Below the pieces are notes generated by a model. The model ran no database searches. It saw nothing but the letters and a program-made list of their open reading frames with translations, and was not told the DNA's origin. Position numbers and translations under genes: made by a program. Positions 47,839 through 63,166 of a stretch of 64,000 bases of DNA are shown here, piece after piece. Within the stretch, counting starts at the first letter, position 1, and each line of letters begins with the position of its first letter. The DNA comes from Bacteroidales bacterium (lineage in GTDB: Bacteria > Bacteroidota > Bacteroidia > Bacteroidales > UBA7960): the NCBI GenBank assembly GCA_031323845.1, contig JAVIYP010000006.1, positions 6,982 to 70,981 on the forward strand. Reading direction: 5' to 3'.

Positions 47839-48846
47839 TCACCCCGAGGCCCGTACTTTCAGGAAGGCCGGAAATACTTTTGTCCTGAATTCTTTTGCCG
47901 GTTCCCCTGAAAGTCGCTGTATAAGCATCCTTGCCGCCTCCTTGCCAATATCGTATCCACGCTGCTCCACAGTAGTCAGGGCAGGGTGTACCACTGATGC
48001 GATGGGATCGTCACCGAAACCGGCGACAGCGATTTGTCCCGGCACTTCATAACCATGATCCTGCAACAGGCGCATGGCGGCCACCGCAGTAAAATCATTG
48101 ACGGCAAAGATGGCATCAGCTTCGGTTATTAACGACAGCAATTTACTGCCAAGCTGTTTTACCCGCGCAGGGGTGTCGCATTTCAGCACCCATTCTTCAC
48201 GCTCCTCAACACCGTGCTCCTGGAGTGCTTCCACATATCCGCGGTATCGTTCGCGGCCCACACAGAGGTGTTGTGGACCTGCCAAATGGATGATGTTCCT
48301 GCGGCCTGTTTTCAGGAGATGGGATACCACCATGCGCGCGCCTTCAAAATCGTTGGTCAGCACCCGGTCGGAGTCAATTTCAGGACTGGCCCTGTCCATA
48401 AACACAACAGGGATCTCCTGTTCAACCAGGCGCCGGAGGTGAGCGTGGTCGCGGGTACTCTTACTGATCGACAACAGAATTCCATCCACCCTGTGGTCAG
48501 TCAAGGCCGCCACATTGATCACCTCACGGTGATAGTCCTCGTTCGACTGACAAATGATGACCCTGTATCCCTGGCCATACGCAACCTCTTCAATGCCGCT
48601 GATCACCGAAGAAAAGAAATGATGCACAATTTCAGGAATGACCACCCCGATCGTAAAAGATTTCTGTTGTTTTAATCCAAGGGCGATGACATTCGGCCGG
48701 TAGTTTACCTTACGTGCATACTCCTGTATGCGCCGGCATGTAGCCTCGCTGATTTCAGGATGGTTTTTCAGCGCCCGTGAAACCGTTGAGGGTGAAACAC
48801 CAAATTCGCGGGCTATATCACTTATGGAAACCTGTGGCGACTTCAT
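47839..48846 (-). CDS. LacI-family transcriptional regulator, divergent from susC
   Basis: HTH ISDIAREFGVSPSTVSRAL, hinge YRPN..A..L, and motifs VAGFGD and LTTV.Q. Confidence 0.96.
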   Translation of the reverse strand: MKSPQVSISDIAREFGVSPSTVSRALKNHPEISEATCRRIQEYARKVNYRPNVIALGLKQQKSFTIGVVIPEIVHHFFSSVISGIEEVAYGQGYRVIICQSNEDYHREVINVAALTDHRVDGILLSISKSTRDHAHLRRLVEQEIPVVFMDRASPEIDSDRVLTNDFEGARMVVSHLLKTGRRNIIHLAGPQHLCVGRERYRGYVEALQEHGVEEREEWVLKCDTPARVKQLGSKLLSLITEADAIFAVNDFTAVAAMRLLQDHGYEVPGQIAVAGFGDDPIASVVHPALTTVEQRGYDIGKEAARMLIQRLSGEPAKEFRTKVFPAFLKVRASG

Positions 48847-49038
48847 AAGCTGATCCGGGTTAAATGAATAATTATCTCACCATAAAGATACGTAATAAAG
48901 AAATGCACAATTGAGTTATCTGTTATTAAAGAATGAGGAAACGCAGCACTGCAGCAAAAACCCGCGTCAACATAGAAAAGGGCCCTTTGTTGACAGGGCG
49001 GACCGTTACACATGCATCATTAAACGGGAAATTCTATA

Positions 49039-49052
49039 CGCAAACGTTTGCG
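49039..49052. promoter_or_regulatory. Probable LacI operator
   Basis: Perfect palindrome CGCAAACGTTTGCG with the central CG typical of LacI-family sites. It lies ~50 bp upstream of TAAATTTG (49104-49111). Confidence 0.75.
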
Positions 49053-49180
49053 GAAAAAACTGATTATCAATACCAAAACATTAAATAATTTAAAAAAAAA
49101 CGTTAAATTTGTAGGCTAAATTCTGAATCGAATCAAAACAGCCATTCTATTTTTAGTTTCATTTTAATTCAGTTAACAAT

Positions 49181-52162
49181 ATGACAAAACCAATCAAGAA
49201 CATGATTCCTTTGCTATTGGCGCTTTTTATGGCGACTGTGGCATGGGGACAAAGAGGCACGGTTACCGGTGTTGTCAGTGACGCCCAAACAGGCGAGACA
49301 CTGCCCGGTGCCAACGTCGTCATTCAGGGCACTACGATCGGTACAGTGACCGATATTGACGGACAATACAGTCTGGATGTGTCTGCCGGCGAAGTTACTC
49401 TGGTAGCCAGCTTCCTCGGCTACAATCCATCGGTACGTACCATCAATATTGGTGCCGGTGAACTTCTTACCATCAACTTTCCTCTTGAGCTTGACATTGC
49501 AACGCTTGAGGAGTTCGTGATTATTGGTTACGGTGTGCAGCGCCGTGAAGATGCCACAGGTTCTGTGGCGGTTGTAGGTGAGCGCGACTTCAACAGGGGT
49601 AACATCACCACTCCTGCCGAGCTGTTGCGCGGAAAGATGCCCGGCGTGCAAATTACCTCTGCCGGTGGTGCACCAGGGACCGGTGAAACCATTAGGATCA
49701 GGGGTGGGTCATCTCTTGATGCCGATAACAACCCGCTGATCGTTATTGATGGTGTACCCATTGAAAGTGCTGGCGTTCCCGGGTTGAGAAACCCCCTGTC
49801 TACCATCAACCCCAGCGACATCGAGACCTTTACCGTACTGAAAGACGCTTCTGCAACAGCCATTTACGGGTCGAGGGCGTCAAACGGGGTAATCATCATC
49901 ACAACAAAAAAGGGTCAGAAAGACATGCCCCTTCAATTTGATTATTCAGGTTCATTTTCGCTTGCGCAGAACATCCGGACCGTTGATGTGTTAAACGCTG
50001 ATGATTTTCGTCAGATCGTGCAGGAAAGGTATGAGGGAAGAACAAGCGTACTGAACATGTTAGGCACTGCCAGCACCAACTGGCAGGATCATATCTTCCA
50101 GGATGCATTCTCACACGACCACTTGCTGAGCGCCAGGGGTGCTTACAGGAATGTCCCCTATCGCATATCTATAGGATATAAAGCAGAAGAAGGCGTCCTG
50201 CAAAGAGACCACATTGAACGTACATCACTGGCTGTAAACCTTAGCCCCACATTGTTCGACAATCACCTGAATGTCAACCTCAATGTCAGGGGTGTAAACA
50301 TCAACAACCAGTTTGCCAATGAAGGCGCTATCGGGTCAGCTGTTAGCTTCGATCCTACAAAACCGGTCAGGGTTGACAGTCCGAACTTCGGAGGTTACTA
50401 TACCTGGCTCGAAGGAGACATGCCCATCACTTATGCCATTAACCCTGTTGCACTCCTTGACCTTACCAACAATGATTCGAATGTAAAAAGACTCATTGGA
50501 AATGCCCAGCTGGAATACAAGGTCCACTGGCTCCCGGAACTTACGGCTAACATGAACGTGGCTTACGACTATTCCGAGTCGGAAGGAAACAACTTCACCC
50601 CCGATTATGCACCATGGGCTTATGTGTCCGGAGGTTCAATCGGCAGGTACGGTCAGGAAAGAAAAAACCAGCTGTTCGATTTTTACCTGAATTATGCTAA
50701 CGAAATTCCGGGCCTGAACAGTCGTTTCGATGTGATGGCCGGTTACTCGTACCAGTATTTCTGGAACAAGGGATACAATTTCTCAAGCAATATTGAAGGT
50801 AATATTTTCGGCACGGAATACCGCATCTTCGACGACCTGGAGTATGAATCTGACCTTGTGCTGATTTCTTTCTTCGGCCGTATGAACTATTACCTGATGG
50901 ACCGTTACCTGTTTACCTTCACCTTACGTAACGACCATACTTCAAGGTTCTCTGCCGATACCCGGTCAGGCGTATTTCCATCAGCAGCCTTTGCCTGGCG
51001 TATCGACAAGGAAAACTTCATGGACAACCTTGACTTTTTCAACGAACTCAAGCTGAGGCTTGGATGGGGTGTTACCGGTCAGCAAAATATCGGACACGGC
51101 AACTATCCTTACCTTGCACGCTACACCAGGAGCCGCGAGGGCGCACGTTATCCTTTCGGCAACGTATTTCTTGACACCTGGCGCCCGGAAGGTTATGACA
51201 GCGAGATCAAGTGGGAAGAAACAACCACCTATAATGCCGGTATCGATTATGGTCTTTTCGGCGACAGGTACTATGGCTCCATTGACTTCTATTTCCGTGA
51301 AACCAGGGACCTGATCAACGTAATCCCGGTTCCTGCAGGTACCAACCTGACAAACTTTATTCTGACCAATGTCGGAAACATGGAAAACACCGGTGTGGAG
51401 TTCAGCATCTTTACCCGCCCCATTGTCACCAGAGACTTCAGGTGGGAGTTGGGGCTCAACGCCACCTGGAACGACACCAAAATTACCAGGCTGACTGCCG
51501 TGGATGACCCCAACTACCCCGGAACCCAGGAAGGATTTATTTCCGGCGGCGTAGGAAACAGAATACAAATCCACAGCGTAGGCTATACACCCTATACCTT
51601 CTGGGTATATCAGCAGGTATACGATGAAAATGGAAATCCGATCGAAGGGCTTTATGTCGACCGAAATGGTGACGGCGAAATCACCTCCGAAGACCTCTAT
51701 CGTTTCAAAAGCCCCATGCCGACATACTACCTTGGCATCACCTCCGAGTTCCTTTACAAGAACTGGAGTTTTGCTTTTGCCGGTCGTGCCAATTTTGACA
51801 ACTGGGTTTACAATAACGTAAGCTCAGTGAACGGTGAATTAAGCAGGTTGTTCCGTCCGGAAGGACCGTACCTGAGCAACATTACAAGTGATGCACTCGA
51901 CGTAAACTTCAACCAGGCACGCTATCTGTCCGATTATTACATCCAGAACGGCTCCTTCTTCAAAATGGATCACATCACACTGGGTTATAACTTCTTCAAT
52001 GTAATGGGTACCGGAGCTAACCTGAACGTATCAGCCATCGTTCAGAATGCATTTACCATTACAAAATACGATGGGCTGGATCCGGAGGTTCACAGCGGAA
52101 TCGATAACAACATCTATCCGCGTCCCAGGACCTTTGTCCTGAACGTCAACCTCCAGTTTTAA
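49181..52162 (+). CDS. susC: SusC-family TonB-dependent transporter
   Basis: N-terminal extension, IRIRGGSS, PLIVIDG, VLKDASATAIYGSRASNGVI, KWEETT and terminal F. Confidence 0.97.
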   Translation: MTKPIKNMIPLLLALFMATVAWGQRGTVTGVVSDAQTGETLPGANVVIQGTTIGTVTDIDGQYSLDVSAGEVTLVASFLGYNPSVRTINIGAGELLTINFPLELDIATLEEFVIIGYGVQRREDATGSVAVVGERDFNRGNITTPAELLRGKMPGVQITSAGGAPGTGETIRIRGGSSLDADNNPLIVIDGVPIESAGVPGLRNPLSTINPSDIETFTVLKDASATAIYGSRASNGVIIITTKKGQKDMPLQFDYSGSFSLAQNIRTVDVLNADDFRQIVQERYEGRTSVLNMLGTASTNWQDHIFQDAFSHDHLLSARGAYRNVPYRISIGYKAEEGVLQRDHIERTSLAVNLSPTLFDNHLNVNLNVRGVNINNQFANEGAIGSAVSFDPTKPVRVDSPNFGGYYTWLEGDMPITYAINPVALLDLTNNDSNVKRLIGNAQLEYKVHWLPELTANMNVAYDYSESEGNNFTPDYAPWAYVSGGSIGRYGQERKNQLFDFYLNYANEIPGLNSRFDVMAGYSYQYFWNKGYNFSSNIEGNIFGTEYRIFDDLEYESDLVLISFFGRMNYYLMDRYLFTFTLRNDHTSRFSADTRSGVFPSAAFAWRIDKENFMDNLDFFNELKLRLGWGVTGQQNIGHGNYPYLARYTRSREGARYPFGNVFLDTWRPEGYDSEIKWEETTTYNAGIDYGLFGDRYYGSIDFYFRETRDLINVIPVPAGTNLTNFILTNVGNMENTGVEFSIFTRPIVTRDFRWELGLNATWNDTKITRLTAVDDPNYPGTQEGFISGGVGNRIQIHSVGYTPYTFWVYQQVYDENGNPIEGLYVDRNGDGEITSEDLYRFKSPMPTYYLGITSEFLYKNWSFAFAGRANFDNWVYNNVSSVNGELSRLFRPEGPYLSNITSDALDVNFNQARYLSDYYIQNGSFFKMDHITLGYNFFNVMGTGANLNVSAIVQNAFTITKYDGLDPEVHSGIDNNIYPRPRTFVLNVNLQF

Positions 52163-52183: not shown

Positions 52184-53764
52184 ATGAAAAGCATTAAGAA
52201 AATAGCTATAATAATTGCCGCGCTGATGATTTCCTTTTCATCCTGTATGAAGGACCTGGATACAGTTCCTTTGGATGGCAATGAAATCACGGCTGCTGAT
52301 GTTTTTAACGATCCGAACGCCTATCGTGAGATACTTGCCAAACTGTATGCAGGACTGGCAGTATCCGGTCAGCAGGGCCCCGCAGGGATGGCCGATATCA
52401 GCGGTATCGATGAAGGTTTTGGTCAATACCTGAGAGCCGTTTACTATCACCAGGTGCTCACCACCGATGAGGCGGTAATAGGTTGGGACGACCAAACCAT
52501 CAAAGACCTGGTTTACCACAGCTGGACAGCCAGCGACGTGTTTGTTTCTGCCATGTACTACCGCATTTTTTACCAGATTGCGCTGGCCAACGAATACATC
52601 CGTCAGACCACCGACGACAAACTCGACGAAAGAGGAGTAAGCGGAGCGCTCAGAGATCAGATTAAAGTTTACAGGGCCGAAGCACGCTTCCTTCGTGCAT
52701 TCAGCTACTGGCATGCGCTTGATATCTTCGGCAATGTTCCCTTCGTTACTCCTGAACATCCCATTGGAGCGTTCCTGCCCGAGCAGATTATGCGTGCAGA
52801 GCTGTTTTTACATCTTGAGGAAGAACTCCTGGAGATTTATCCTTCAATGGCGGAAGCACGCGCCAACGAATACGGCAGGGTCGACAGGGCCGCCGCATGG
52901 ATGCTGCTTGCCAAGCTTTATATGAACGCCGAAACTTATGCAAATCAGCAAAGGTACACGGACGCGTTAACGTACCTGAACCTGATCATAGATGCCGGCT
53001 ACGCGCTTGAGGATGAGTACCTGCATCTTTTCAATGCCGATAACCATTTGAGCACCAACGAAATCATCATGAGAGTGCCTTATCATGGCATTGAAACCCA
53101 AACCTATGGCGGTACTACCTTCGTCATTAAGGCAAGTATCGGTGGCGATATGGTGCCTGCTCATTCCGGAGTGAATGAAGGTTGGGGCGGTCTTCGCACC
53201 ACACCCGAATTTGTCTCGCTCTTTCATAATGACGACCCGAGAGCGCTGTTTTTTACGGACGGTCAAACGCTCAACATCCCCAATCTTTCTGACTTCCAGA
53301 ATGGTTATGCAGTGCGTAAGTTTACGAACATGACGCGCGACAACCAACCGGGAAGCAACCTTGAGTTCCCCGACACTGACTTTCCGGTATTCCGCCTGGC
53401 CGATGTGTACCTGATGTATGCCGAGGCCGTGCTCAGAGGCGGCAGTGGTGGCGACATGGCCACGGCACTGAACCTCGTCAACCAGATCAGAGAAAGAGCA
53501 TGGGGCGATAACTCGGGCAACATCACCGCCGGACAGTTAACCCTCGACTTTATCCTCGATGAACGTGGCCGGGAACTCTACTGGGAAGGACACAGAAGAA
53601 CAGACCTGATACGCTTTGGCCGATTTACCGGCAATGCCTATGTCTGGGCATGGAAAGGACAAACACCGAATGGTCTTCCTACAGATTCAAGGTTTAACCT
53701 CTTCCCGATACCGGACTCTGATGTGAACGCAAACCCCAACCTGGAACAAAACCCGGATTATTAA
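52184..53764 (+). CDS. susD: SusD-family glycan-binding lipoprotein (starch-type)
   Basis: Lipobox FSSC and motifs EARFLRA, FRLADVYLMYAEA, ERGRELYWEGHRRTDLIRFG and QNP.Y. Confidence 0.96.
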   Translation: MKSIKKIAIIIAALMISFSSCMKDLDTVPLDGNEITAADVFNDPNAYREILAKLYAGLAVSGQQGPAGMADISGIDEGFGQYLRAVYYHQVLTTDEAVIGWDDQTIKDLVYHSWTASDVFVSAMYYRIFYQIALANEYIRQTTDDKLDERGVSGALRDQIKVYRAEARFLRAFSYWHALDIFGNVPFVTPEHPIGAFLPEQIMRAELFLHLEEELLEIYPSMAEARANEYGRVDRAAAWMLLAKLYMNAETYANQQRYTDALTYLNLIIDAGYALEDEYLHLFNADNHLSTNEIIMRVPYHGIETQTYGGTTFVIKASIGGDMVPAHSGVNEGWGGLRTTPEFVSLFHNDDPRALFFTDGQTLNIPNLSDFQNGYAVRKFTNMTRDNQPGSNLEFPDTDFPVFRLADVYLMYAEAVLRGGSGGDMATALNLVNQIRERAWGDNSGNITAGQLTLDFILDERGRELYWEGHRRTDLIRFGRFTGNAYVWAWKGQTPNGLPTDSRFNLFPIPDSDVNANPNLEQNPDY

Positions 53765-55149: not shown

Positions 55150-57462
55150 ATGACGTTGTTAAACAAACCTCCGGATATCGCTTCCCCGTTCAGGAATTTC
55201 GAAAACATACTCTACCTGGCCAGCACCCTGGAACACTTTGACGGTGTGAAAAGGTCCGGCCGGATACTTTACAAAAGGCACATCCATCAAACACTGATGT
55301 CTTTTAACAGCATGGATACCCACTTATCCGCTGTTGAACAGAATGAATTTCCCCCCGACGAGTACGAAGCCTCACCCCTGCTGCCTTTTTCCATTGAATT
55401 CATAAGTGACAGAAGCATCAGGATAAAAATTCATTCCACCCAGCAAATGCCGGTGGCCGTCCGGGAGGACGACGTAATGCTGACCGGAGAATATGCCCGG
55501 AACGATGCCTCCAGGCTGTGGAAATATTCAAAAACAGAGGAAGGCCATAAATACACAGGTCCCAGTGGCGCTGTCGTCATCCATGAAGATCCCTGGCGCA
55601 TTGAGATCCTGGACAAAAAAGGCACGACCTTGTGCAACACCGTACATCAGGCCGATAACGACACTACCTTCACTCCGCTGATTCCCTTTGGCTGGCTGAG
55701 GCGCGCTTCTGACTACTCACGCAGCTTTTCCGCAGCGTTTTCCTTGCATCCGGGTGAAAAAATATTCGGGTATGGTGAGTTTTATACCGGCTTCGACAGG
55801 CGCGGCCAGGAAATCCAGCTTTTTACCGATGATGCCAGGGGCTCTCAGAATGAGAAAAGCCACAAACCGGTGCCCTTCTTTATGAGTAACAGGGGATACG
55901 GCATGTTTGTACACACCTCGGCACCTGTTTGCTGCGATGTCGGGAAATATTACAGCGGCTTGCATTCCATATTTACCGGGGATGACGAACTTGACCTGTT
56001 CATTTTTATCGGCACACCAAAAGACATCCTTAATGAATACACCAACCTTACCGGAAAGGCCGGCATGCCGCCGCTATGGTCGTTTGGTTTCTGGATGAGC
56101 CGCATCACCTATTTTTCAGAAGAAGAGGGTCGCGAAACGGCCAAAAAACTGAGGGAACATAAACTCCCGTCCGACGTGATCCATTTCGACTCGGGCTGGT
56201 TTGAAAAGGACATCCGTTGTGATTATGAGTTCTCTTCAAGCAATTTCCGCGACCCGGAAAAAATGATTGCCGACCTCCGCGAGGATGGCTTCAGGGTGAG
56301 TCTCTGGCAACTTCCTTACTTTGTTCCGAAAAACAAATGGTACAGGGAGATCCTTGAAAAAGGACTATATGTGAAGGATGGGAAAGGCAATCCCCCTTAC
56401 GAGGATGTCATCCTCGACTTCACGAATCCGGAGGCCGTGGCTTGGTTGCAGGAAAAACTGGCCCGGCTGTTAAAGATGGGTGTGTCGGCCATCAAGGCTG
56501 ACTTTGGGGAGGCTGCTCCTGTAAACGGCATATACCACAACGGCAGAAGCGGCTTCTACGAGCACAACCTTTACCCCACAAGATACAACAAGGCGGTGGC
56601 CGGAGTTACCGAAGAGGTTACCGGTGAGCACATTATCTGGGCGCGCAGCGGCTGGGCAGGAAGCCAGCGTTACCCGGTGCACTGGGGTGGCGATGCCTGC
56701 ACCTCTGACACGGGTATGGCCGGAGTATTGAGAGGCGGACTGAGCGCCGGCTTGTCGGGTTTTAGTTTCTGGAGTCATGATGTGGGCGGCTTCGTTGCAC
56801 AAACACCCGAAGACCTTTACCTCAGATGGGCGGCCTTCGGTGCGTTCTCATCACATATGCGAAGCCACGGGCAACCACCAAAAGAACCTTATGCCTATTC
56901 AGCCGGCGGACTGAACACCTTCAGGAAGATCCTGAATGTGCGCTACCGCCTGATGCCCTATATCTACGCCCAGGCAAAACACAGTGCCGAAAACGGCCTG
57001 CCGGTGATGCGCGCAGCATTTGTGGAATACCCTGACGATCCCGGTGCATGGACGCTCGACGATCAATACCTTTTTGGAGAAGACTTTCTTGTAGCGCCCC
57101 TCTTTGAAGCTGTGACATCAAGAAACGTATACCTGCCCGGAAAGCACCCCTGGACCGACTACCAGACCCGCAAAACCTATGAACCCGGCTGGCAGCATAT
57201 TCAAGCTGGTGAACTGCCGGTAATACTTCTGGTGCGCAGCGGGGCGCTCATACCGCACATACCACTGGCTCAATCAACTCAGTTCATGGACTGGTCAACC
57301 CTGGAGCTGAGCGCCTTCCCTGGTGAAGACGACAAGGCTACCGGCCGGATTTGTCTGCCCATGGACAATGTGCTTAAATCTATGACGGTGATCAAAACAA
57401 AAGATCGTTTGCTGCCTGAGACAGACCCATTCGATAAGAAGATCCATTTTATTATTCAGTAA
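55150..57462 (+). CDS. GH31 glycoside hydrolase (YicI-like alpha-glycosidase), no signal peptide
   Basis: PPLWSFGFW, nucleophile KADFGE, acid/base WGGD, WSHDVGGF, R.HG and QYLFG. Likely start at 55150. Confidence 0.92.
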   Translation: MTLLNKPPDIASPFRNFENILYLASTLEHFDGVKRSGRILYKRHIHQTLMSFNSMDTHLSAVEQNEFPPDEYEASPLLPFSIEFISDRSIRIKIHSTQQMPVAVREDDVMLTGEYARNDASRLWKYSKTEEGHKYTGPSGAVVIHEDPWRIEILDKKGTTLCNTVHQADNDTTFTPLIPFGWLRRASDYSRSFSAAFSLHPGEKIFGYGEFYTGFDRRGQEIQLFTDDARGSQNEKSHKPVPFFMSNRGYGMFVHTSAPVCCDVGKYYSGLHSIFTGDDELDLFIFIGTPKDILNEYTNLTGKAGMPPLWSFGFWMSRITYFSEEEGRETAKKLREHKLPSDVIHFDSGWFEKDIRCDYEFSSSNFRDPEKMIADLREDGFRVSLWQLPYFVPKNKWYREILEKGLYVKDGKGNPPYEDVILDFTNPEAVAWLQEKLARLLKMGVSAIKADFGEAAPVNGIYHNGRSGFYEHNLYPTRYNKAVAGVTEEVTGEHIIWARSGWAGSQRYPVHWGGDACTSDTGMAGVLRGGLSAGLSGFSFWSHDVGGFVAQTPEDLYLRWAAFGAFSSHMRSHGQPPKEPYAYSAGGLNTFRKILNVRYRLMPYIYAQAKHSAENGLPVMRAAFVEYPDDPGAWTLDDQYLFGEDFLVAPLFEAVTSRNVYLPGKHPWTDYQTRKTYEPGWQHIQAGELPVILLVRSGALIPHIPLAQSTQFMDWSTLELSAFPGEDDKATGRICLPMDNVLKSMTVIKTKDRLLPETDPFDKKIHFIIQ

Positions 57463-57475: not shown

Positions 57476-58471
57476 ATGAACAAAACGCTTCTTCTGGAAC
57501 GGCTTATCAGGGGCGAACCTCTTGAAAAAACCCTGTTTTCGCCCATATTGATGCATTTTGCTGCCCGCCATGCGGGACAAACCTACGGTGCATTTGCTGC
57601 TGACCATAAGGTGCTGGTGGAGGCAAACATAAAAGCTATGAACGATTTCGGTATGGACATGGTATCGCTGATATCGGATCCCTATCGCGAAACCGCTGCA
57701 TTTGGCGCTCGGATCGAATTCCCTGCGGAAGAGGTGCCCAGGTGTACAGGCTGTGTGATCAAAACCCCGGACGACATTCACAAACTTGAAGTGCCTGACG
57801 TATACCGTAACGAACGTACGCTCGACCGCATCAAAGGAGCGGAAATGTATCAGCATCTGCTGAAGGGGGAGGTGCCGGTAATAGGCTGGATTGAAGGCCC
57901 CCTGGCAGAAGCGTGCGATCTTGCCGGTGTCTCTGACATGCTGATGATGCTCATGATGGACCCGGAGTCTTCCGAAGTGCTCCTGGACAAGTGCCTTGAG
58001 ATGGCAAAGAACTTTTCCAAAGCGCAGCTTGACGCAGGTTGCCGCATCATTGGCATGGGTGATGCCGTGTGCTCTCAAATCGATGCAGGCACTTACGACA
58101 CCTTTGTCCGCGACAGGCACAAAGAGATCATCTCCTTTGTTCATGAACACGGAGGCCTTGTAAAACTGCATATTTGCGGCAATATAACCCATCTTCTTCC
58201 ATCCATCAGTGAGCTGCACGCCGACATTGTTGACCTCGACTGGCAGGTTGGCCCCGGGGAGGCCCGAAAAATACTTGGAGAAAAGGTGATATTGTGTGGC
58301 AATATCAATCCGGTGCTTGTGCAGGACCTTTCTGCCGAAGAGGTTTACAGCCAGGCAAAAGAGCTGGTTGACAGCCAGAAAGGACAGCGGTTCATCCTCT
58401 CTGCCGGATGTGAGATTACGGTGAACACGCCTGCTGACAACCTCATGGCCATGAGAAGAGCATCAGAATAA
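57476..58471 (+). CDS. MtaA/CmuA-like methyltransferase (UroD fold)
   Basis: E..AFG and GP motifs, with Zn ligands LHICG and SAGCE. Confidence 0.85.
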   Translation: MNKTLLLERLIRGEPLEKTLFSPILMHFAARHAGQTYGAFAADHKVLVEANIKAMNDFGMDMVSLISDPYRETAAFGARIEFPAEEVPRCTGCVIKTPDDIHKLEVPDVYRNERTLDRIKGAEMYQHLLKGEVPVIGWIEGPLAEACDLAGVSDMLMMLMMDPESSEVLLDKCLEMAKNFSKAQLDAGCRIIGMGDAVCSQIDAGTYDTFVRDRHKEIISFVHEHGGLVKLHICGNITHLLPSISELHADIVDLDWQVGPGEARKILGEKVILCGNINPVLVQDLSAEEVYSQAKELVDSQKGQRFILSAGCEITVNTPADNLMAMRRASE

Positions 58472-58595: not shown

Positions 58596-59279
58596 ATGAG
58601 CCCGTCTGAACTTTTAGCTCGCATTGCCCATTGCATTGAATTCGGAAAAATCAACGGTCCGTCGCCCTATCCTCCGGATATGAAAGGGCAGGATGGCGCT
58701 GACGAGTACACACAACGGGCGCTGCAATCGGGTGTCAGTGCACAGGACGTTCTGCTTAAGGGCCTGATCGTGGGAATGGAGAAGGTGGGAAAAAAATTCA
58801 GGGACAACCTGGTTTTTGTGCCCCAGGTGCTTATGTCGGCAAAAGCCATGAATACGGCTATGGTTCACCTGGAGCCTTATTTTTCATCCGGGGAGATAAA
58901 ATCGCGGGGCACGTTCATTATCGGCACCGTGGCAGGCGACTTGCACGATATTGGAAAAAACCTGGTGTCCATGATCATGAAAGGCAATGGCTGGAAGGTT
59001 GTTGATCTGGGTATGGATGTCAGTACTGAAAAGTTCATGGAAAGCATCAGGCAACATCCTGAAGCTGTCGTCGGCCTGTCCGCCCTGCTTACCACCACTA
59101 TGGTGAATATGCAAAAAACGGTGGAGCACATTAAAGCTGAGCTGCCCGGCACCCTTGTTGCCATTGGCGGGGCGCCTGTCACGCAGGCCTTTTGTGATCA
59201 AATCGGCGCCGACGTTTACTCTCCCGACCCCCAGGGGTTGGTGGAGTACCTCGATAATTTGAATGTATCGTTAAACTAG
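58596..59279 (+). CDS. Corrinoid (B12-binding) methyl-carrier protein
   Basis: Cap motif GM..VG..F....FVP, DLHDIGKNLV (DxHxxG), LSALLTTT and IGGAP. Confidence 0.95.
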   Translation: MSPSELLARIAHCIEFGKINGPSPYPPDMKGQDGADEYTQRALQSGVSAQDVLLKGLIVGMEKVGKKFRDNLVFVPQVLMSAKAMNTAMVHLEPYFSSGEIKSRGTFIIGTVAGDLHDIGKNLVSMIMKGNGWKVVDLGMDVSTEKFMESIRQHPEAVVGLSALLTTTMVNMQKTVEHIKAELPGTLVAIGGAPVTQAFCDQIGADVYSPDPQGLVEYLDNLNVSLN

Positions 59280-59355
59280 TAGTGTTGACATGACACTAGT
59301 GCTGCCGGCATTTATGAGATCAGAGAAATCGCGGGCGCACACAAAAACAAAGAAC

Positions 59356-60723
59356 ATGACAGGAAAAGAAAGAATCCGGAAAGCATTTACCTTAATGACT
59401 ACTGACCAGACGCCGTGGGTGCCTTTTGCAGGAGTGCACTGTGCATTCCTGAGCGGCCTGCCGGCTGATGAATATCTAAAAAGCGAAGGGCATATAATCC
59501 GTGGCGTTGGCAGGGCCGTCGAGCTGTATGAACCTGACGGTATTCCTGTGGTTTTTGACCTCCAGGTTGAAGCCGAAGTGCTGGGATGCCAGCTGAAGTG
59601 GGTCAGCGACAACCCTCCTGCCGTCGTATCTCATCCGCTGGCAGAAGGTCTAACCCTTGAGCAACTACCGGAATTCAACAAACAGCAGGGACGAATTCCT
59701 GTTTGTCTCTCCGCCGCAACCGAACTCAGGAAAAAATTCCCTGACATTGCCCTCTATGGCCTCGTAACCGGTCCGTTTACACTGGCCGTGCACCTGGCCG
59801 GCACAAACATCTTCATGCAGATGATGGAAGATCCCGAAACAGTGACTGAAATCCTGACCTATTGCAGTGGCATCACGAAAAAAATGGCCTCCTGGTATCT
59901 TGAAGCCGGATGCGATGTGATTGCCGTGGTTGACCCCATGACCAGCCAGATCGACCCGGTGTCGTTTGAACAGTTTGTCAGTCATCCCATCAGTGATGTG
60001 TTTCAAAAGATCCGCGAACAACATGGACTCAGTTCATTTTTTGTGTGCGGATTTGCACAGCACAACATAGAAGCCATGTGTAAATGCCGGCCCGATAACA
60101 TTTCCATTGACGAAAATATTCCGCTCGACTTTGTAAAGGAGATGGCGGCGAAATACGGCCTGAGCTTCGGCGGCAACCTTAAGCTGACCTCGGTGCTTTC
60201 GCTGGGATCTGTTCAGGACGTTGAAAAACACACCCTGGAAACCATGGAACTGGGTGGTGAAACTGGCTTTATCCTTGCGCCGGGCTGTGACCTTGTGATG
60301 GATACCCCTGTTGAAAACCTTCAGGCGGTTACCCAAACCGTATTAAAGAGGCATCATGCTGTTGATTCACAGGAGGCGCAAAAAAATGTGCCCGAAACAG
60401 AACATGAAGCTTTTAAAAAACGATGGAAAAAGGATAAGGTCATCATTGACATTATCACGCTCGATTCTTCCAGCTGTGCACCCTGCCAGTACATGTTTAA
60501 AGCCGTAACGCTGGCCGCAGAGGGTTTTGGCGACAAGGTCATCTGCAAAGAAAACAGCATCAAAACAAAAGAAGGGCTGCAGCTGATGGAAGCCCTTGGC
60601 GTGCGTAATGTCCCGGTAACCGTAATTGACGGAGAGATCTGTTTTGTTTCACAAATACCTCCCAGGGCTGACTTAGAGGAAGCCATCAGGGAAAAACTCA
60701 GGCAAAAAGGCCTGATCCGGTAA
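59356..60723 (+). CDS. MtaA/UroD-fold methyltransferase fused to a C-terminal thioredoxin-like CxxC domain
   Basis: DLQVEAE.LGC, GPFTLA, FFVCG and APGCD, then a tail with SCAPCQYM...NVP..VIDG. Likely start at 59356. Confidence 0.85.
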   Translation: MTGKERIRKAFTLMTTDQTPWVPFAGVHCAFLSGLPADEYLKSEGHIIRGVGRAVELYEPDGIPVVFDLQVEAEVLGCQLKWVSDNPPAVVSHPLAEGLTLEQLPEFNKQQGRIPVCLSAATELRKKFPDIALYGLVTGPFTLAVHLAGTNIFMQMMEDPETVTEILTYCSGITKKMASWYLEAGCDVIAVVDPMTSQIDPVSFEQFVSHPISDVFQKIREQHGLSSFFVCGFAQHNIEAMCKCRPDNISIDENIPLDFVKEMAAKYGLSFGGNLKLTSVLSLGSVQDVEKHTLETMELGGETGFILAPGCDLVMDTPVENLQAVTQTVLKRHHAVDSQEAQKNVPETEHEAFKKRWKKDKVIIDIITLDSSSCAPCQYMFKAVTLAAEGFGDKVICKENSIKTKEGLQLMEALGVRNVPVTVIDGEICFVSQIPPRADLEEAIREKLRQKGLIR

Positions 60724-60736
60724 AACACATAACCTA

Positions 60737-61417
60737 ATGATCAGGGTGCACACCTTCTCTTTTGACAGCCTTGGAATAACATCCGGTGATCTTGAAGAAT
60801 TCATAGGATACTTTCCGGGAAGCAGCATGGCCGCGTTCACCGGGAGTTATGAGCAAGCGCTGTCAGAAGCTGCTGAACTTTGCCGTATCGAAGCCGGATA
60901 CCGCTGTTTTGAAGATGTTTCGGTCGGCAACAGTTATGTGCTTCTGGACAACAAAAGATTGCTGACGGGCAAGCTGATCAATCAGCAATTAACCGGAGCT
61001 TCGGGCGCTGCGGTGTTTGTTTGCACCGCCGGAAGCAAGATCACTGATGTCTCGAAACAGTATGCGGCTGACAACAATGAGCTGATGGCTTACCTGCTGG
61101 ATGTGACAGGATCGGTTTGTGCCGAAAAGGCGGCTGACCTCCTGGAGGACAAATTGCTTGAAGAGCTGAGAGAAGAAGGCTACGGTCTCAGCAACCGATG
61201 CAGCCCGGGTTATTGCGGCTGGGATGTGGCCGAACAGCACAAGCTGTTTTCACTGCTTCCGGATAATTTTTGCGGTGTCAGCCTCACCGCATCCTCGCTG
61301 ATGCATCCCATAAAATCCGTAAGCGGAATCATCGGATACGGACCAAACGCCGGACTATCGGAACGACCCTGTCATCAATGCCGTCAAACACAATGCATAT
61401 ACAAAAAAGCAACCTGA
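60737..61417 (+). CDS. Stand-alone MetH-type (SAM-dependent) B12 reactivation domain protein
   Basis: FVCTAG, D..GS..AE, R.SPGYC.W, M.PIKSVSG, and a C-terminal CxxCxxxxC. Confidence 0.85.
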   Translation: MIRVHTFSFDSLGITSGDLEEFIGYFPGSSMAAFTGSYEQALSEAAELCRIEAGYRCFEDVSVGNSYVLLDNKRLLTGKLINQQLTGASGAAVFVCTAGSKITDVSKQYAADNNELMAYLLDVTGSVCAEKAADLLEDKLLEELREEGYGLSNRCSPGYCGWDVAEQHKLFSLLPDNFCGVSLTASSLMHPIKSVSGIIGYGPNAGLSERPCHQCRQTQCIYKKAT

Positions 61418-61543
61418 CCCGGCCATATGGATGCCGTGACGGCAACCGGGCACGCTGACAGCGAACGACAACAGCAGAGGCGCCCGAACCGCTGTATATT
61501 CATTACCTTACATACATATTGTCGCATCAAAAAAAAAACAATC

Positions 61544-63166
61544 ATGCTGACTTTGAAACTAAAACAATCAATCCTGCTATTGTTCATCCTGTTTGCTGCA
61601 TGTATTCAGCAGTCCTGTGCTGACCGGCAAAAGCAGGACCGTAGCGAAAAACCCGACTGGAACAATGAAATCATTTACCATGTGATGCAGCGAAGTTTTT
61701 ATGATTCGAGCGGGGACGGGCACGGTGATCTTAACGGCGTTGTCCAGAAGCTGGATTATCTTGAAGAACTGGGTGTTACCACCATTTTATTCCTGCCGCT
61801 TTACGAGTCAGACTTCTATCACAATTATTTTCCTATCGACTATGAGCGTATCGACCCGCGTTACGGCACCATGGATGATTACCTGGCGTTTGTAAAAGCC
61901 GTGCACGACAGAGGTATGAAATTTATTATGGATATGGAAACCCAGTATGTGCAAAATGGGAATCACTGGTTCGAAGATTCGTACAAAAACCCCGGGTCGC
62001 CCTATTCGGACTTTATTTATTACAGCGATGATGAGCAGCACTATCCCGAACAATTTCTAAGGGCTTCGGGCGAAGAGTTATACACTTACCGGGCCTGGCC
62101 CGACCAGGAGTTGCACATCTTTCACCTTGATATGAATCATCAGACGGTGAAAGACTACATGAAGGATTACTATGCTTTCTGGGTTGACCCAAAAGGTGAT
62201 GGCAGCCTTGAAGGCGGTGTGGACGGCTTCCGCATTGACCACATTATGGATGACCTTGACTATAAAGGCATCTTTACGAACCTGTACACCGATTTCTGGA
62301 AACCTGTGTTCGATCATGTGAAAGCCATCAATCCAAATCTTTTTATTGTTGGTGAGCAGTCGAACTGGGCCTCCTATGGCGATGAGATGATGGAGAAAAG
62401 TGGTGCGGATGCCAGCTTTGGCTTCCTGGTGCGCTATGCTATTGCAGATGCGATGATGTCAGACGCTGATGATGCACCCGGTGCTACCAATATTGCTCAA
62501 TTCATAAAAAACACCCTTGACCACATACCGGACGATAAATTCTATGTTCACTTTATTGAAAACCATGACATTCCGAGGTGGGCAAGCGAAATGAAGGGGC
62601 ATGAACGTAAAAAAAGATGCGGCGCAATACTCACCCTGCTGTTGCCCGGCATCCCATCCATATATTACGGCCAGGAACTGGGGGTCACGGGCAAGGTATA
62701 CGACTGGAGTTACGATGTAAACCATATTCCGGTCAGGGAAGCCTTTCCGTGGACGCCCGATCCGAATGATAAGGGGATCGCTGCTTTCTATAAAGACACG
62801 GGGCCCTGGTGGGATGTCAGTTATTTCAACACCGGCAAGGCTGAAGCATTTGCCCTTTCCAAACAAAAAAACGACAAGAACTCACTTTGGCATCTGTACA
62901 AGGACCTTATTGAATTCAGGAAACAGACGCCGGCGCTTACACACGGGGATTTTAACATCATCCGGCCCGGCGATGACAGGCTTTTTGCCTTTTCGCGAAG
63001 CAAGGGAGAAGAAAGCGTGCAGGTTTTTATGAACCTGTCAGAGAAACCCATGTCGGTTGATGTTATGAAGCTTGGCGATGTCCGGTTTATCGAAGATGCA
63101 GTCATCCTTGAGGGAGGCATACACCTGGATGCATACGGATTCGTGGTTTTTGCGGGAGGAATTTAA
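61544..63166 (+). CDS. GH13 alpha-amylase-family lipoprotein
   Basis: Signal peptide with Cys, DS.GDG.GDLNG, catalytic DGFRID / GE / NHD, and PSIYYGQE. Likely start at 61544. Confidence 0.92.
   Translation: MLTLKLKQSILLLFILFAACIQQSCADRQKQDRSEKPDWNNEIIYHVMQRSFYDSSGDGHGDLNGVVQKLDYLEELGVTTILFLPLYESDFYHNYFPIDYERIDPRYGTMDDYLAFVKAVHDRGMKFIMDMETQYVQNGNHWFEDSYKNPGSPYSDFIYYSDDEQHYPEQFLRASGEELYTYRAWPDQELHIFHLDMNHQTVKDYMKDYYAFWVDPKGDGSLEGGVDGFRIDHIMDDLDYKGIFTNLYTDFWKPVFDHVKAINPNLFIVGEQSNWASYGDEMMEKSGADASFGFLVRYAIADAMMSDADDAPGATNIAQFIKNTLDHIPDDKFYVHFIENHDIPRWASEMKGHERKKRCGAILTLLLPGIPSIYYGQELGVTGKVYDWSYDVNHIPVREAFPWTPDPNDKGIAAFYKDTGPWWDVSYFNTGKAEAFALSKQKNDKNSLWHLYKDLIEFRKQTPALTHGDFNIIRPGDDRLFAFSRSKGEESVQVFMNLSEKPMSVDVMKLGDVRFIEDAVILEGGIHLDAYGFVVFAGGI

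What the first reader, a model, noticed from the sequence alone, without database searches (positions are those of the whole stretch)
47839..63166. Starch-type PUL with an embedded cobalamin methyl-transfer module: candidate anaerobic O-demethylation pathway for methylated alpha-glucans
Seen: lacI divergent from susC-susD-susE, then GH31, MtaA/UroD-fold protein, corrinoid protein (DxHxxG), MtaA-thioredoxin fusion, MetH-type reactivation domain and GH13. All are co-oriented, and two gaps inside the module are only 13 bp. The methyl-transfer genes sit between two alpha-glucan CAZymes. Established: MT1 + corrinoid + MT2 + activator sets cleave methyl ethers in acetogens and methanogens, while aerobic marine Bacteroidota demethylate 6-O-methylgalactose with a PUL-encoded P450. 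Inference: this is the oxygen-independent equivalent. Sus proteins and GH13 capture and cut an O-methylated alpha-glucan (e.g. the 6-O-methylglucose polymer of actinobacterial MGLP, or methyl glucosides), GH31 frees the methyl-sugar in the cytoplasm, and the corrinoid module removes the methyl group. I recall related GH31-corrinoid-UroD clusters in gut Bacteroides (unverified), so only the coupling to a full SusCDE+GH13 PUL may be new.
Basis: partly seen in the sequence, partly recalled or inferred. Interest (0 to 1): 0.92.

Follow-up and report, generated by a model that had tools for sequence, protein, structure and literature searches.

The report
B12 methyl-transfer cassette beside starch PUL
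A movable six-gene cassette pairing two alpha-glycosidases with a vitamin-B12 methyl-transfer system sits beside a starch-uptake locus, and its relatives in other bacteria point to an undescribed oxygen-free way of removing methyl groups from sugars.

Summary
It is two units, not one PUL. The first is lacI/susCDE, conserved across the genus, with a LacI-type palindrome and a strong terminator. The second is an accessory cassette, GH31-MT_A-corrinoid protein-MtaA::thioredoxin (MT_B_Trx)-MetH-type activation protein-GH13.

In five same-genus genomes the same site holds susCDE without the cassette. One of these (G019) carries the cassette on another contig. In G017 it lies on the other side of susCDE. 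The GH31 and GH13 orthologues are found almost only in cassette-bearing genomes.

The constant core (corrinoid protein, MT_B_Trx, CobW, plus an activation protein or a homocysteine methyltransferase) has at least 517 relatives. It sits next to exchangeable UroD-type methyltransferases, which are adjacent to galactokinase, RhaT, GH26/MFS, GH120 or GH31. One core lies in a porphyran-type locus of Mariniflexile, directly beside the ADH-esterase-P450-ferredoxin-reductase set known for 6-O-methylgalactose. One locus has MtaB in front of MT_B_Trx, which puts MT_B_Trx in the acceptor-side (MT2) slot.

Oxygen-independent sugar demethylation is therefore plausible for the family. The "methylated alpha-glucan" substrate is untested. 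MT_A has an S-type His-Cys-Cys zinc site. I found no paper describing this system.

The parts
47839..48846 (-). LacI-family regulator, divergent from susC
   Evidence: Pfam LacI plus Peripla_BP_1/3. Orthologues at 62-67% identity occupy the same place in G003, G009, G014 and G019. None was found in the G012 and G017 loci.
49039..49052 (.). Perfect 14-bp palindrome CGCAAACGTTTGCG, a candidate LacI operator in the lacI-susC spacer
   Evidence: it is the only copy within the finding's coordinates at up to 3 mismatches (one other, with 3 mismatches, at 11814). The 12-bp core is kept in the same spacer in G003 and G014 (exact) and in G019 and G009 (1 mismatch).
49181..52162 (+). SusC/RagA TonB-dependent transporter
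   Evidence: TIGR04056 scores 712.7 bits against a cut-off of 368. Orthologues at 70-76% identity are present at the syntenic site in G003, G009, G012, G014, G017 and G019.
52184..53764 (+). Starch-type SusD-like lipoprotein
   Evidence: PF07980. NF033071 SusD scores 412 bits, below its cut-off of 725. It is by far the best SusD-type match in the genome. Matches at 61-85% identity occur in 17 of 24 same-genus genomes.
53770..54897 (+). SusE-like outer-membrane lipoprotein
   Evidence: PF14292 at 37 bits.
54920..54957 (+). Intrinsic-terminator-like hairpin with a T run, ending the susCDE unit
   Evidence: dG -28.9 kcal/mol, z -7.69, and 0 of 200 shuffles fold as well. The tool's own terminator scan did not list it.
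55011..55120 (+). Spacer holding two TATTTTTG boxes (55011-55018 and 55113-55120), a candidate promoter of the cassette
   Evidence: The sequence is read. That TAnnTTTG is the Bacteroidota -7 consensus is recalled, not tested.
55150..57462 (+). GH31 alpha-glycosidase without a signal peptide (cytoplasmic by inspection)
   Evidence: Pfam GH31 N-terminal, TIM-barrel and C-terminal domains. Best NCBIfam hit is alpha-xylosidase at 488 bits, below its cut-off of 606. Best PDB sequences are 5f7c 'alpha-glucosidase' at 422 bits and YicI at 361. Orthologues occur only in cassette-bearing genomes plus G046.
57476..58471 (+). MT_A: MtaA/UroD-fold methyltransferase with a His-Cys-Cys zinc motif (HICG...GCE); candidate donor-side MT1
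   Evidence: PF01208 at 211 bits. TIGR01463 scores 135.8 bits, below its cut-off of 235.4. It lies 13 bp after GH31.
58596..59279 (+). Corrinoid (B12-binding) methyl-carrier protein with DxHxxG
   Evidence: PF02607 plus PF02310. Best NCBIfam hits are MtgC/pyl_corrinoid types, all below their cut-offs.
59290..60723 (+). MT_B_Trx: MtaA-like methyltransferase fused to a CxxC thioredoxin-like domain, short form; the likely start is M23 at 59356; candidate acceptor-side MT2
   Evidence: PF01208 plus PF13192. AF2 model has pLDDT 89.4. Best fold match is MtaA 4ay7, TM 0.91 and rmsd 2.0 A. The zinc columns read Phe-Cys-Cys. It sits in the MtaA slot next to MtaB in L060.
60737..61417 (+). MetH-activation-domain protein (RamLike) with conserved RxSPGY and a C-terminal CxxCxxxxC
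   Evidence: PF02965 at 42 bits. Conservation was measured over 38 sequences.
61541..63166 (+). GH13 alpha-amylase-family lipoprotein (signal ...LFAAC); the ORF opens at 61427
   Evidence: PF00128 at 203 bits. Best PDB sequences are amylases 1wza and 5m99 at about 140 bits. Orthologues at 65-78% identity occur in G007, G010, G015, G017 and G019, that is 5 of 24.

Best explanation
The region holds two units. The first is the genus-wide starch-type uptake unit lacI/susC-susD-susE. It is controlled through a palindromic LacI operator and closed by a terminator.

The second is an accessory, independently transcribed cassette, GH31-MT_A-CoP-MT_B_Trx-RamLike-GH13, that has inserted between the susE terminator and the convergent U32 peptidase gene.

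Proposed mechanism (inferred):
1. The lipoprotein GH13 trims an alpha-linked glycan or oligosaccharide outside the cytoplasm.
2. The cytoplasmic GH31 releases, or is unblocked on, a methyl-bearing sugar or glycoside.
3. MT_A passes that methyl group to Co(I) of the corrinoid protein.
4. MT_B_Trx, the constant MtaA-like enzyme of the whole family, unloads methyl-Co(III) onto a thiol-type acceptor of unknown identity. Homocysteine methyltransferase is absent here.
5. The MetH-type activation protein re-methylates accidentally oxidised Co(II) with SAM and an electron.

Shown here: the gene content, the operon structure, co-inheritance, and the contexts of relatives. Inferred: the donor, the acceptor, the direction of transfer, and the link to SusCDE import.
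For: 1. Tight operon: gaps of 13, 124, 10, 13 and 123 bp between the cassette genes.

2. Co-inheritance. Four of 24 same-genus genomes (G010, G015, G017, G019) keep GH31-MT_A-CoP-MT_B_Trx-(CobW)-RamLike-GH13 in the same order at 48-81% identity.
- GH31 orthologues (>=57% identity) were found only in those four plus G046, among 41 genomes searched. Other genus members have only ~30% paralogues.
- GH13 orthologues occur in G007, G010, G015, G017 and G019, that is 5 of 24.

3. The cassette lies beside the same susCDE in two genomes, at different sides. In G000 it follows susE. In G017 it lies between iPGM and susC, with GH13 115 bp before susC.

Within these, MT_B_Trx is found with CobW in 71, CoP in 67, RamLike in 36, a PF02574 homocysteine methyltransferase in 36 and an AraC regulator in 29 (one search agrees within 1).

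5. Exchangeable partners lie in the same-strand run:
- GalK-UroD340 (L076, L081).
- RhaT-UroD415-like (L033, L035, L058).
- GH26-MFS_2-UroD415 (G016).
- 3-keto-disaccharide hydrolase-GFO-UroD415-GH120 (L030, L042; L059 has only GH120 beside the core, with UroD415 separated from it).
- GH31 overlapping a UroD/MetE-family gene by 8 bp in L045; in L046 the two are 120 bp apart.
- A PfkB kinase (L079).
- A NanM-SSF protein (L104).

6. L085 (Mariniflexile maritimum) has this order: porphyranase-domain protein, two sulfatases, AraC, UroD340-CoP-MT_B_Trx-CobW-RamLike, then Zn-ADH-esterase-P450-ferredoxin-like-ferredoxin reductase, then SusC. Passages of PMC10033563 describe exactly that ADH/esterase/CYP/redox-partner arrangement for oxidative 6-O-methylgalactose demethylation.

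7. L060 has CoP-MtaB (PF12176, 527 bits)-MT_B_Trx-CobW-RACo. This puts MT_B_Trx in the MT2 position of the MtaABC scheme. By elimination MT_A is then the donor-side enzyme here: G000 has only these two URO-D genes, no MtaB and no cl34 homologue.

8. A 2025 paper states that demethylation of methylgalactose in anaerobes 'has not been elucidated yet' (PMC12316285, passages).
Against: - MT_A carries His-Cys-Cys in 10 of 10 sequences. Kountz & Balskus (PMC10418091, Results read) assign that pattern to S/Se-methyltransferases. They report that O-demethylases replace one or both Cys with carboxylates or non-coordinating residues.
- In a FastTree of 55 sequences, MT_A groups with MT_B_Trx (split support 1.0). 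It does not group with the sugar-linked His-Cys-His paralogues.
- MT_A orthologues at 52-59% identity occur in 7 other loci without GH31 or GH13.
- There is no LacI-type palindrome before GH31, and a strong terminator follows susE.
- In G019 the susCDE site is empty and the cassette lies on another contig. In G015 a histidine kinase, a lactate permease and others lie upstream of GH31.
- The cassette has no inner-membrane transporter.
- GH31 specificity is open. Its best family hit is alpha-xylosidase, and its closest outside relative lies among GH9, GH3 and GH27 genes and a carboxylesterase.
- The count of 34 of 80 loci with a carbohydrate-type neighbour has no background control, and these genomes are CAZyme-rich.
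- No expression or biochemical data exist.
Confidence: 0.45

Rival explanations
1. The donor is an S-methyl (or Se-methyl) compound. It could be a methylthio-sugar or glycoside freed by the GHs, or a small methyl sulfide. MT_A would act like MtsA-type thiol methyltransferases, and the fused thioredoxin domain would handle the thiol or disulfide chemistry.
For: - MT_A has the His-Cys-Cys zinc pattern in 10 of 10 sequences. MT_B_Trx keeps both Cys in 81 of 81 (Phe-Cys-Cys in 79, His-Cys-Cys in 2).
- The published rule, and the S/Se role proposed for type 1 MGC Mlps, point this way (PMC10418091).
- MT_A is sister to MT_B_Trx.
- The thioredoxin domain hits the 'HUIPC thioredoxin-like (seleno)protein' model NF047660, at 33.7 bits against a cut-off of 105.
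Against: - I know of no S-methylated alpha-glycoside that would explain GH31 plus GH13.
- The family's variable partners sit beside galactokinase, RhaT and glycoside hydrolases, and beside the P450 set for an O-methyl sugar.
- The zinc-ligand rule rests on few characterised enzymes.
Confidence: 0.17
2. The methyl module is a folate-independent, split-MetH-like methionine or methyl-salvage system. Its linkage to GH31 and GH13 would be regulatory, with no shared substrate.
For: - CoP and RamLike are MetH-like.
- In 36 of 80 related loci a PF02574 homocysteine methyltransferase follows MT_B_Trx.
- G000 (96.65% complete) has no PF02574 and no PF01717 hit, so neither MetH nor MetE was found.
- 4 of 5 cassette-bearing genomes of the genus lack MetH.
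Against: - The homocysteine methyltransferase accompanies only the long (~539 aa) form of MT_B_Trx: 36 of 53 long against 0 of 25 short. One 'long' call, L027, is an ORF-start artefact. The window has the short form.
- MetH is also missing in 11 of 20 cassette-free genus genomes, including G012 and G014 at >=93% completeness. G019 has both MetH and the cassette.
- It does not explain why GH31 and GH13 are inherited only with the cassette.
Confidence: 0.1
3. The adjacency to susCDE is incidental. The susE-U32 and iPGM-susC spacers would be permissive insertion sites, and the cassette would work on substrates imported by other systems.
For: - The cassette is absent from the intact susCDE site in G019, which carries it on another contig. 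In G015 a histidine kinase lies upstream of GH31 and no window-gene homologue was found downstream of GH13.
- G003 has a different 4.5-kb insert at the same susE-U32 site.
- The cassette has its own spacer and a terminator upstream, and no shared operator.
Against: - Two different insertion sides next to the same susCDE in G000 and G017. In G017 susC follows GH13 by 115 bp with lacI gone, which suggests capture into one unit.
- GH13 and the starch-type SusD share the alpha-glucan theme.
Confidence: 0.3
4. GH31 hydrolyses methyl alpha-glycosides, and the module consumes the released methanol.
For: In one relative (L060) a true MtaB methanol methyltransferase works with the same CoP/MT_B_Trx core.
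Against: - No MtaB was found in G000.
- Methanol need not be removed for the sugar to be used.
- MT_A is not MtaB-like.
Confidence: 0.04

Closest known systems
Corrinoid O-demethylase / methyltransferase systems of anaerobes (MtvABC, Odm, MtoABCD; MT1 + corrinoid protein + MT2 + activase)
   Same: A UroD-superfamily methyltransferase, a small DxHxxG corrinoid protein and a second methyltransferase are clustered in one operon. The scheme is as given in PMC8630106 (passages).
   Different: - The substrates there are aryl methyl ethers; here the context is glycosidases and sugar genes.
- MT2 there is folate/pterin-type (MtvA, or MtrH-like MtoA). Here it is an MtaA-like enzyme fused to thioredoxin, and the only PF00809 hit in G000 is one 298-aa ORF on another contig, which I take to be FolP without having tested it.
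- The activase there is RACo/RamA-type. Here a MetH activation domain is present, and no RACo was found in G000.
MtaABC methanol:coenzyme M methyltransferase of methanogens
   Same: MT_A and MT_B_Trx are closest to MtaA by sequence, and MT_B_Trx by fold as well (4ay7). One relative has MtaB-CoP-MT_B_Trx.
   Different: - There is no MtaB here.
- CoM is not known in Bacteroidota (recalled).
- MT_B_Trx has Phe in place of the zinc His, and has a thioredoxin domain.
- Both proteins score below the TIGR01463 cut-off.
Cobalamin-dependent methionine synthase MetH and split MetH forms
   Same: The corrinoid protein matches the MetH cap and B12 domains (132 bits to TIGR02082). RamLike matches the activation domain. 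Long-form relatives carry a PF02574 homocysteine domain protein.
   Different: - There is no folate (PF00809) module; a UroD-fold enzyme takes its place.
- The window's short form has no homocysteine methyltransferase anywhere in the genome.
Type 1 mlp gene clusters (Kountz & Balskus, bioRxiv 2023, PMC10418091)
   Same: Several MtaA-like UroD proteins with Cys-containing zinc sites sit beside a corrinoid protein, and no folate methyltransferase is present.
   Different: - Those clusters are mostly in Firmicutes, carry a Ram/RACE activase, and are linked to S/Se metabolism.
- The paper's text has no occurrence of Bacteroid*, CobW or glycos*, and thioredoxin occurs only in its reference list.
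- Membership of MT_A or MT_B_Trx in Mlp1-3 was not tested, because no Mlp sequences were at hand.
P450 (CYP)/ferredoxin/ferredoxin-reductase demethylation of 6-O-methyl-D-galactose in marine Bacteroidota PULs (Reisky 2018, as cited in PMC10033563 and PMC12316285)
   Same: A methyl-removal function is encoded inside glycan-utilisation loci. In L085 both systems lie side by side.
   Different: The P450 route is oxidative, needs O2 and releases formaldehyde. The route proposed here is nucleophilic Co(I) methyl transfer without O2.
Sus-type starch utilisation locus
   Same: A SusC/SusD/SusE trio with a starch-type SusD, a LacI regulator and a GH13 lipoprotein nearby.
   Different: - The conserved genus locus contains no glycosidase at all.
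- SusD is below the NF033071 cut-off.
- GH13 and GH31 belong to the inserted cassette.

Membership tests
Three/four-component corrinoid methyltransferase system (MT1-CP-MT2-activase) | Corrinoid protein with B12-binding domains and a DxHxxG base-off/His-on motif | tested here: met
   PF02607 plus PF02310. DLHDIG is in the translation.
Three/four-component corrinoid methyltransferase system (MT1-CP-MT2-activase) | Two methyltransferases, one on the donor side and one on the acceptor side | tested here: inconclusive
   Two URO-D proteins are present. The roles are inferred only from the MtaB-bearing relative L060 and by elimination.
Three/four-component corrinoid methyltransferase system (MT1-CP-MT2-activase) | ATP-dependent RACo/RamA-type reductive activase | tested here: not met
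   PF14574 was not found in G000. It is present in 8 of 80 related loci. A MetH-type activation protein is present instead.
Three/four-component corrinoid methyltransferase system (MT1-CP-MT2-activase) | Methyl transfer from substrate to Co(I) and from methyl-Co(III) to an acceptor | not testable with these tools
   This needs anoxic UV-vis assays.
MtaA/CmuA family (TIGR01463) | Score at or above the curated cut-off of 235.4 bits | tested here: not met
   MT_A scores 135.8 bits and MT_B_Trx 159.3 bits.
MtaA/CmuA family (TIGR01463) | His-Cys-Cys zinc ligands | tested here: inconclusive
   MT_A has HCC. MT_B_Trx has FCC, with Phe at the position that aligns with the His of the HxC motif in 4ay7.
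Aryl O-demethylase MT1 (OdmB/VdmB/MtvB type) | Zinc site with a Cys replaced by a carboxylate or a non-ligand (rule quoted from PMC10418091) | tested here: not met
   MT_A keeps both Cys. No sequences of the characterised enzymes were available for a tree.
MetH | Homocysteine (PF02574) and pterin (PF00809) modules | tested here: not met
   There is no PF02574 hit in G000. The only PF00809 hit is a 298-aa ORF on another contig.
Starch Sus PUL | Adjacent SusC/SusD pair | tested here: met
   TIGR04056 at 712 bits, and PF07980.
Starch Sus PUL | SusD equivalent to the B. thetaiotaomicron starch-binding SusD (NF033071 cut-off of 725 bits) | tested here: not met
   It scores 412 bits. It is still the only strong SusD-type match in G000.
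Starch Sus PUL | Starch binding and induction by maltose or starch | not testable with these tools
   No RNA holder was listed.
Type 1 mlp gene cluster | Mlp2 and Mlp3 orthologues plus a Ram/RACE protein | not tested
   No Mlp sequences were at hand. A RACE-type protein was not found in G000.

The most novel reading that the evidence does not exclude
The cassette is one member of a large, undescribed family of B12-dependent sugar demethylation modules. Each has a constant core: a corrinoid protein, an MtaA::thioredoxin methyl-unloading enzyme, a CobW-type metallochaperone and a MetH-type activation protein. Exchangeable UroD-fold donor-side enzymes are wired to specific sugar transporters, kinases and glycosidases.

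This would be the long-sought oxygen-free route by which anaerobic and microaerobic glycan degraders remove O-methyl groups. Candidates are 6-O-methylgalactose of porphyran and methyl-rhamnose or methyl-fucose; in this window, a methylated alpha-glucoside or alpha-xyloside.

The methyl group would be dumped on a thiol or sulfide, or, in the long form, used to make methionine.
Probability: 0.4. Interest if true: 0.92.

Novelty: new variant of a known kind. Interest (0 to 1): 0.8.

Why it matters
Methylated sugars are common in algal, plant and microbial glycans. The only known way to remove the methyl ether is an O2-dependent P450. A 2025 study of the gut porphyran system states that the anaerobic mechanism is unknown (PMC12316285, passages).

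This work gives several concrete, testable starting points:
- The module has at least 517 relatives among the species-representative genomes scanned.
- It sits beside galactokinase, RhaT and glycosidases.
- In one cultured flavobacterium it lies directly beside the P450 demethylase genes.

If the candidate holds, it would:
- link B12 supply to glycan turnover in sediments and guts;
- add a source of methylated sulfur compounds or methionine;
- supply oxygen-free demethylases for biocatalysis.

The window also shows how such a cassette docks onto a pre-existing SusCDE locus.

Tried and rejected
- **Riboswitch or other Rfam element.** I looked upstream of GH31 and CoP, and in six related loci. 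Nothing reached gathering score.
- **Second LacI operator near GH31.** None found.
- **Complementary distribution of the cassette and MetH in the genus.** Not decisive: MetH is present in 1 of 5 cassette genomes and in 9 of 20 others, and many genomes are incomplete.
- **cl34 (the gene after GH31 in L045 and L046) as a UroD relative.**
  - Pfam gave nothing, and a PDB sequence search gave nothing.
  - hhalign against the MT_A alignment was weak: probability 1.9%, E 0.026.
  - The AF2 model was unusable, with pLDDT 47 from a 3-sequence alignment.
  - Only ESM features (0.97 to a cluster in which 54% carry PF01208) and two source names ('URO-D domain', 'uroporphyrinogen decarboxylase/cobalamine-independent methionine synthase family') support it. 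I treat it as a lead.
- **MT_A across the class.** 1 of 400 other genomes matched (G306, 46% identity). It stands alone, with no CoP or GH nearby.
- **The frdCAB genes next to the core in some loci.** These are Prolixibacteraceae-labelled records among others. I judged them conserved synteny, not part of the system.
- **Expression.** No RNA holder was listed. The laid runs are DNA contigs only, and no contig joins susE directly to U32.
- **Not used:** Complex prediction, because CoP with either methyltransferase would pass by likeness and would not tell direction; and the search of protein representatives.
- **Literature.** Searches found no paper linking corrinoid methyltransferases to methylated sugars or PULs. 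Subscription journals and paper supplements were not visible. Fig. S2 of PMC10033563, which lists the P450 neighbourhoods, could bear on L085.

Full report
**1. What is in the window**

- lacI on the minus strand;
- susC, susD and susE;
- a GH31 without a signal peptide;
- a URO-D/MtaA-like protein (MT_A);
- a corrinoid protein with DLHDIG (CoP);
- a URO-D protein fused to a CxxC thioredoxin-like domain (MT_B_Trx);
- a MetH activation-domain protein (RamLike);
- a GH13 whose likely start gives a lipoprotein signal.

Upstream lie a MacB/FtsX permease and a phosphoglycerate mutase (iPGM). Downstream lies a convergent U32 peptidase.

Contigs from lake-water metagenome runs of one study bridge both the susE/GH31 junction and the GH13/U32 junction. 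They differ from the window by roughly 1 to 3 letters in 100, so the arrangement is not an assembly artefact.

**2. Two units, not one**

- After susE there is a 17-bp-stem hairpin with a T run (dG -28.9 kcal/mol, z -7.7).
- A 252-bp spacer follows, with two TATTTTTG boxes. Their reading as Bacteroidota promoter elements is recalled, not tested.
- A perfect palindrome, CGCAAACGTTTGCG, lies in the lacI-susC spacer. It has no second copy near GH31.
- Its 12-bp core is kept in the same spacer in four other genomes that have lacI.
- Inside the cassette the gaps are 13, 124, 10, 13 and 123 bp.

**3. The cassette is accessory; susCDE is core**

- The starch-type SusD has matches at 61-85% identity in 17 of 24 same-genus genomes. 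It is the only strong SusD-type match in this genome.
- At the syntenic site, G003, G009, G012, G014 and G019 have permease-iPGM-(lacI)-susC-susD-susE-U32 with no GH31...GH13 genes. G003 has a different 4.5-kb insert after susE.
- G019 nevertheless carries the whole cassette on another contig.
- In G017 the cassette lies between iPGM and susC. lacI is gone, and susC starts 115 bp after GH13.
- In G015 the gene upstream of GH31 is a histidine kinase.
- Four of 24 genus members (G010, G015, G017, G019) keep GH31-MT_A-CoP-MT_B_Trx-(CobW)-RamLike-GH13. A fifth, G016, has the core in a GH26-MFS_2 context instead.
- GH31 orthologues (>=57% identity) occur only in those four plus G046, among 41 genomes searched.
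- GH13 orthologues occur in those four plus the incomplete G007.

The two glycosidases and the methyl-transfer genes are therefore inherited as one block. That block has come to lie next to the same susCDE twice, on different sides.

**4. The wider family**

Of these, 517 were confirmed as MT_B_Trx relatives, and the best 80 loci were analysed. By record titles they come from:
- Prolixibacteraceae, Carboxylicivirga, Labilibacter and Saccharicrinis, and Cyclobacteriaceae;
- Lentisphaerae, Planctomycetota, Verrucomicrobiota and Melioribacteraceae;
- single Neiella and Mariniflexile isolates.

Partners of MT_B_Trx in these 80 loci (clustering agrees within 1):

| Partner | Loci of 80 |
|---|---|
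| CobW-type GTPase | 71 |
| CoP | 67 |
| RamLike | 36 |
| PF02574 homocysteine methyltransferase | 36 |
| Divergent AraC regulator | 29 |
| RACo activase | 8 |

MT_B_Trx has two forms.
- The long form (~539 aa) has a second thioredoxin-like domain. It has the homocysteine methyltransferase in 36 of 53 loci.
- The short form (~450 aa), as in the window, has it in 0 of 25 loci and RamLike in 20 of 25. One 'long' call, L027, is an ORF-start artefact.

**5. What the variable partners say**

Further UroD-fold genes sit in the same-strand run as the core. They lie next to sugar-specific genes:
- galactokinase, overlapping UroD340 (L076, L081);
- a RhaT rhamnose-type symporter before a UroD415-like gene (L033, L035, L058);
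- GH26 and an MFS_2 glycoside transporter (G016);
- 3-keto-disaccharide hydrolases, a GFO-type oxidoreductase and a GH120-like protein (L030, L042; L059 has GH120 beside the core, with UroD415 two genes upstream, outside the same-strand run);
- a GH31 (42-44% identical to the window's) followed by a gene whose relatives two sources name as UroD/MetE family — overlapping it by 8 bp in L045 and 120 bp before it in L046;
- a PfkB sugar kinase (L079);
- a NanM-SSF protein (L104).

The most telling case is L085, from Mariniflexile maritimum strain M5A1M. Its gene order is:
1. a porphyranase-domain protein;
2. two sulfatases;
3. AraC;
4. UroD340-CoP-MT_B_Trx-CobW-RamLike;
5. 396 bp later, Zn-ADH, esterase, P450, a 104-aa ferredoxin-like protein and a ferredoxin reductase;
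6. SusC.

PMC10033563 (passages) describes exactly this ADH/esterase/CYP/redox-partner arrangement. There it appears with sulfatases and SusC/D around it, for oxidative demethylation of 6-O-methylgalactose.

With my limited set of annotated representatives, 34 of 80 loci have at least one carbohydrate-type neighbour. There is no background control, so this count is descriptive only.

**6. Which enzyme does what**

- In L060 the order is regulator-CoP-MtaB (PF12176, 527 bits)-MT_B_Trx-CobW-RACo. In the methanol system MtaB is MT1 and MtaA is MT2 (scheme in PMC8630106). MT_B_Trx therefore occupies the MT2 slot.
- Its model (pLDDT 89.4) superposes on MtaA 4ay7 with TM 0.91.
- Zinc columns are given in the table below.

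| Protein group | Zinc-column pattern | Count |
|---|---|---|
| MT_A | His-Cys-Cys | 10 of 10 |
| MT_B_Trx | Phe-Cys-Cys | 79 of 81 |
| Sugar-linked paralogues | His-Cys-His | 26 of 29 |

- A FastTree of 55 sequences separates (MT_A + MT_B_Trx) from the His-Cys-His group, with supports of 1.0 and 0.997 under a midpoint root. It used 15 of the 80 MT_B_Trx sequences, drawn at random, plus the references.
- Kountz & Balskus (PMC10418091, Results read) assign His-Cys-Cys to S/Se-methyl transfer. This is the main argument against MT_A being an O-demethylase.
- G000 has only these two URO-D genes, no MtaB, no cl34 homologue and no RACo. By elimination, MT_A must be the donor-side enzyme if the cassette is self-sufficient. 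MttB-type enzymes could not be checked.
- RamLike keeps RxSPGY and LMxPxKSxSG, plus five Cys conserved at >=92%, including a C-terminal CxxCxxxxC. That these motifs bind SAM is recalled from MetH.

**7. Acceptor**

- G000 (96.65% complete) has no PF02574 hit and no PF01717 hit. Its only PF00809 hit is a 298-aa ORF on another contig.
- Neither homocysteine through a MetH-type domain nor folate through a pterin-binding domain is therefore evident.
- The MtaA-like fold, the retained Cys pair, the CobW partner and the CxxC domain suggest a thiol-type acceptor. This is inference.
- Methylation of sulfide to methanethiol, known for O-demethylating anaerobes, is a recalled analogy. I did not check it.

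**8. Substrate**

- GH13 resembles amylases only distantly, at about 140 bits.
- GH31 is closest to an uncharacterised 'alpha-glucosidase' structure and to the alpha-xylosidase YicI.
- Its 59% relative in G046 lies among GH9, GH3 and GH27 genes and a carboxylesterase.
- 'Methylated alpha-glucan' is thus one possibility among several. Others are a methylated alpha-xyloside, another alpha-glycoside, or an S-methyl compound.

**9. Verdict**

The general idea of a B12-dependent, oxygen-free counterpart of the P450 sugar demethylase gains real comparative support at the family level.
- The single-PUL picture, the LacI co-regulation and the specific substrate do not gain support.
- Eight literature searches found no description of such a system.
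- PMC12316285 (passages) states that the anaerobic mechanism is still to be discovered.

Noticed in passing
L085:1-21378 (Mariniflexile maritimum M5A1M record): A porphyranase/sulfatase/SusC locus holds the UroD340-CoP-MT_B_Trx-CobW-RamLike operon. The ADH-esterase-P450-ferredoxin-ferredoxin reductase set starts 396 bp after it. An oxic and a putative anoxic methyl-sugar demethylase would thus sit side by side.
   Followed up: partly
L060:8602-13799: A Bacteroidales MAG has CoP-MtaB-MT_B_Trx-CobW-RACo. This is a methanol-type MT1 combined with the thioredoxin-fused MtaA-like enzyme, outside methanogens and acetogens.
   Followed up: partly
L030, L031, L062 and 33 further loci: The long form of MT_B_Trx, with an extra C-terminal thioredoxin-like domain, occurs with a PF02574 homocysteine methyltransferase in 36 of 53 loci. 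The short form never does (0 of 25). This looks like a split, folate-module-free MetH analogue.
   Followed up: partly
whole genome G000: No MetH-type (PF02574) and no MetE-type (PF01717) methionine synthase was found in a 96.65%-complete genome. MetE was not found in any of 25 genus genomes, and MetH in only 10.
   Followed up: partly
window 60737-61417 and 37 relatives: The MetH-activation-like protein carries five highly conserved cysteines, including a C-terminal CxxCxxxxC. This may be a metal or Fe-S site for electron entry.
   Followed up: no
L138:10190-14731 (G003): A different insert of about 4.5 kb occupies the same susE-U32 spacer that holds the cassette in the window. The spacer may be an insertion hot spot.
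   Followed up: no
L142 (G012) and L016/L021 (G017): No lacI homologue and no copy of the palindrome were found in these two loci although susCDE is kept, so regulation of the starch unit seems to differ within the genus.
   Followed up: no
L045:2800-3894 and 3149 database relatives: A large family of ~354-aa proteins has no Pfam hit. Two sources name it as UroD/MetE-like. In L045 its gene overlaps the end of GH31 by 8 bp, and in L041 it lies next to an MT_A orthologue.
   Followed up: partly
window 3185-3490: A weak B12-binding-domain match (22 bits, below the cut-off) lies in a 326-aa ORF far upstream of the finding.
   Followed up: no
L135:7322-16887 (G046): The closest GH31 relative outside the genus lies in a run of GH9-GH31-carboxylesterase-GH3-GH27 genes. 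That genome's CoP-MT_B_Trx-homocysteine methyltransferase genes are on another contig.
   Followed up: partly
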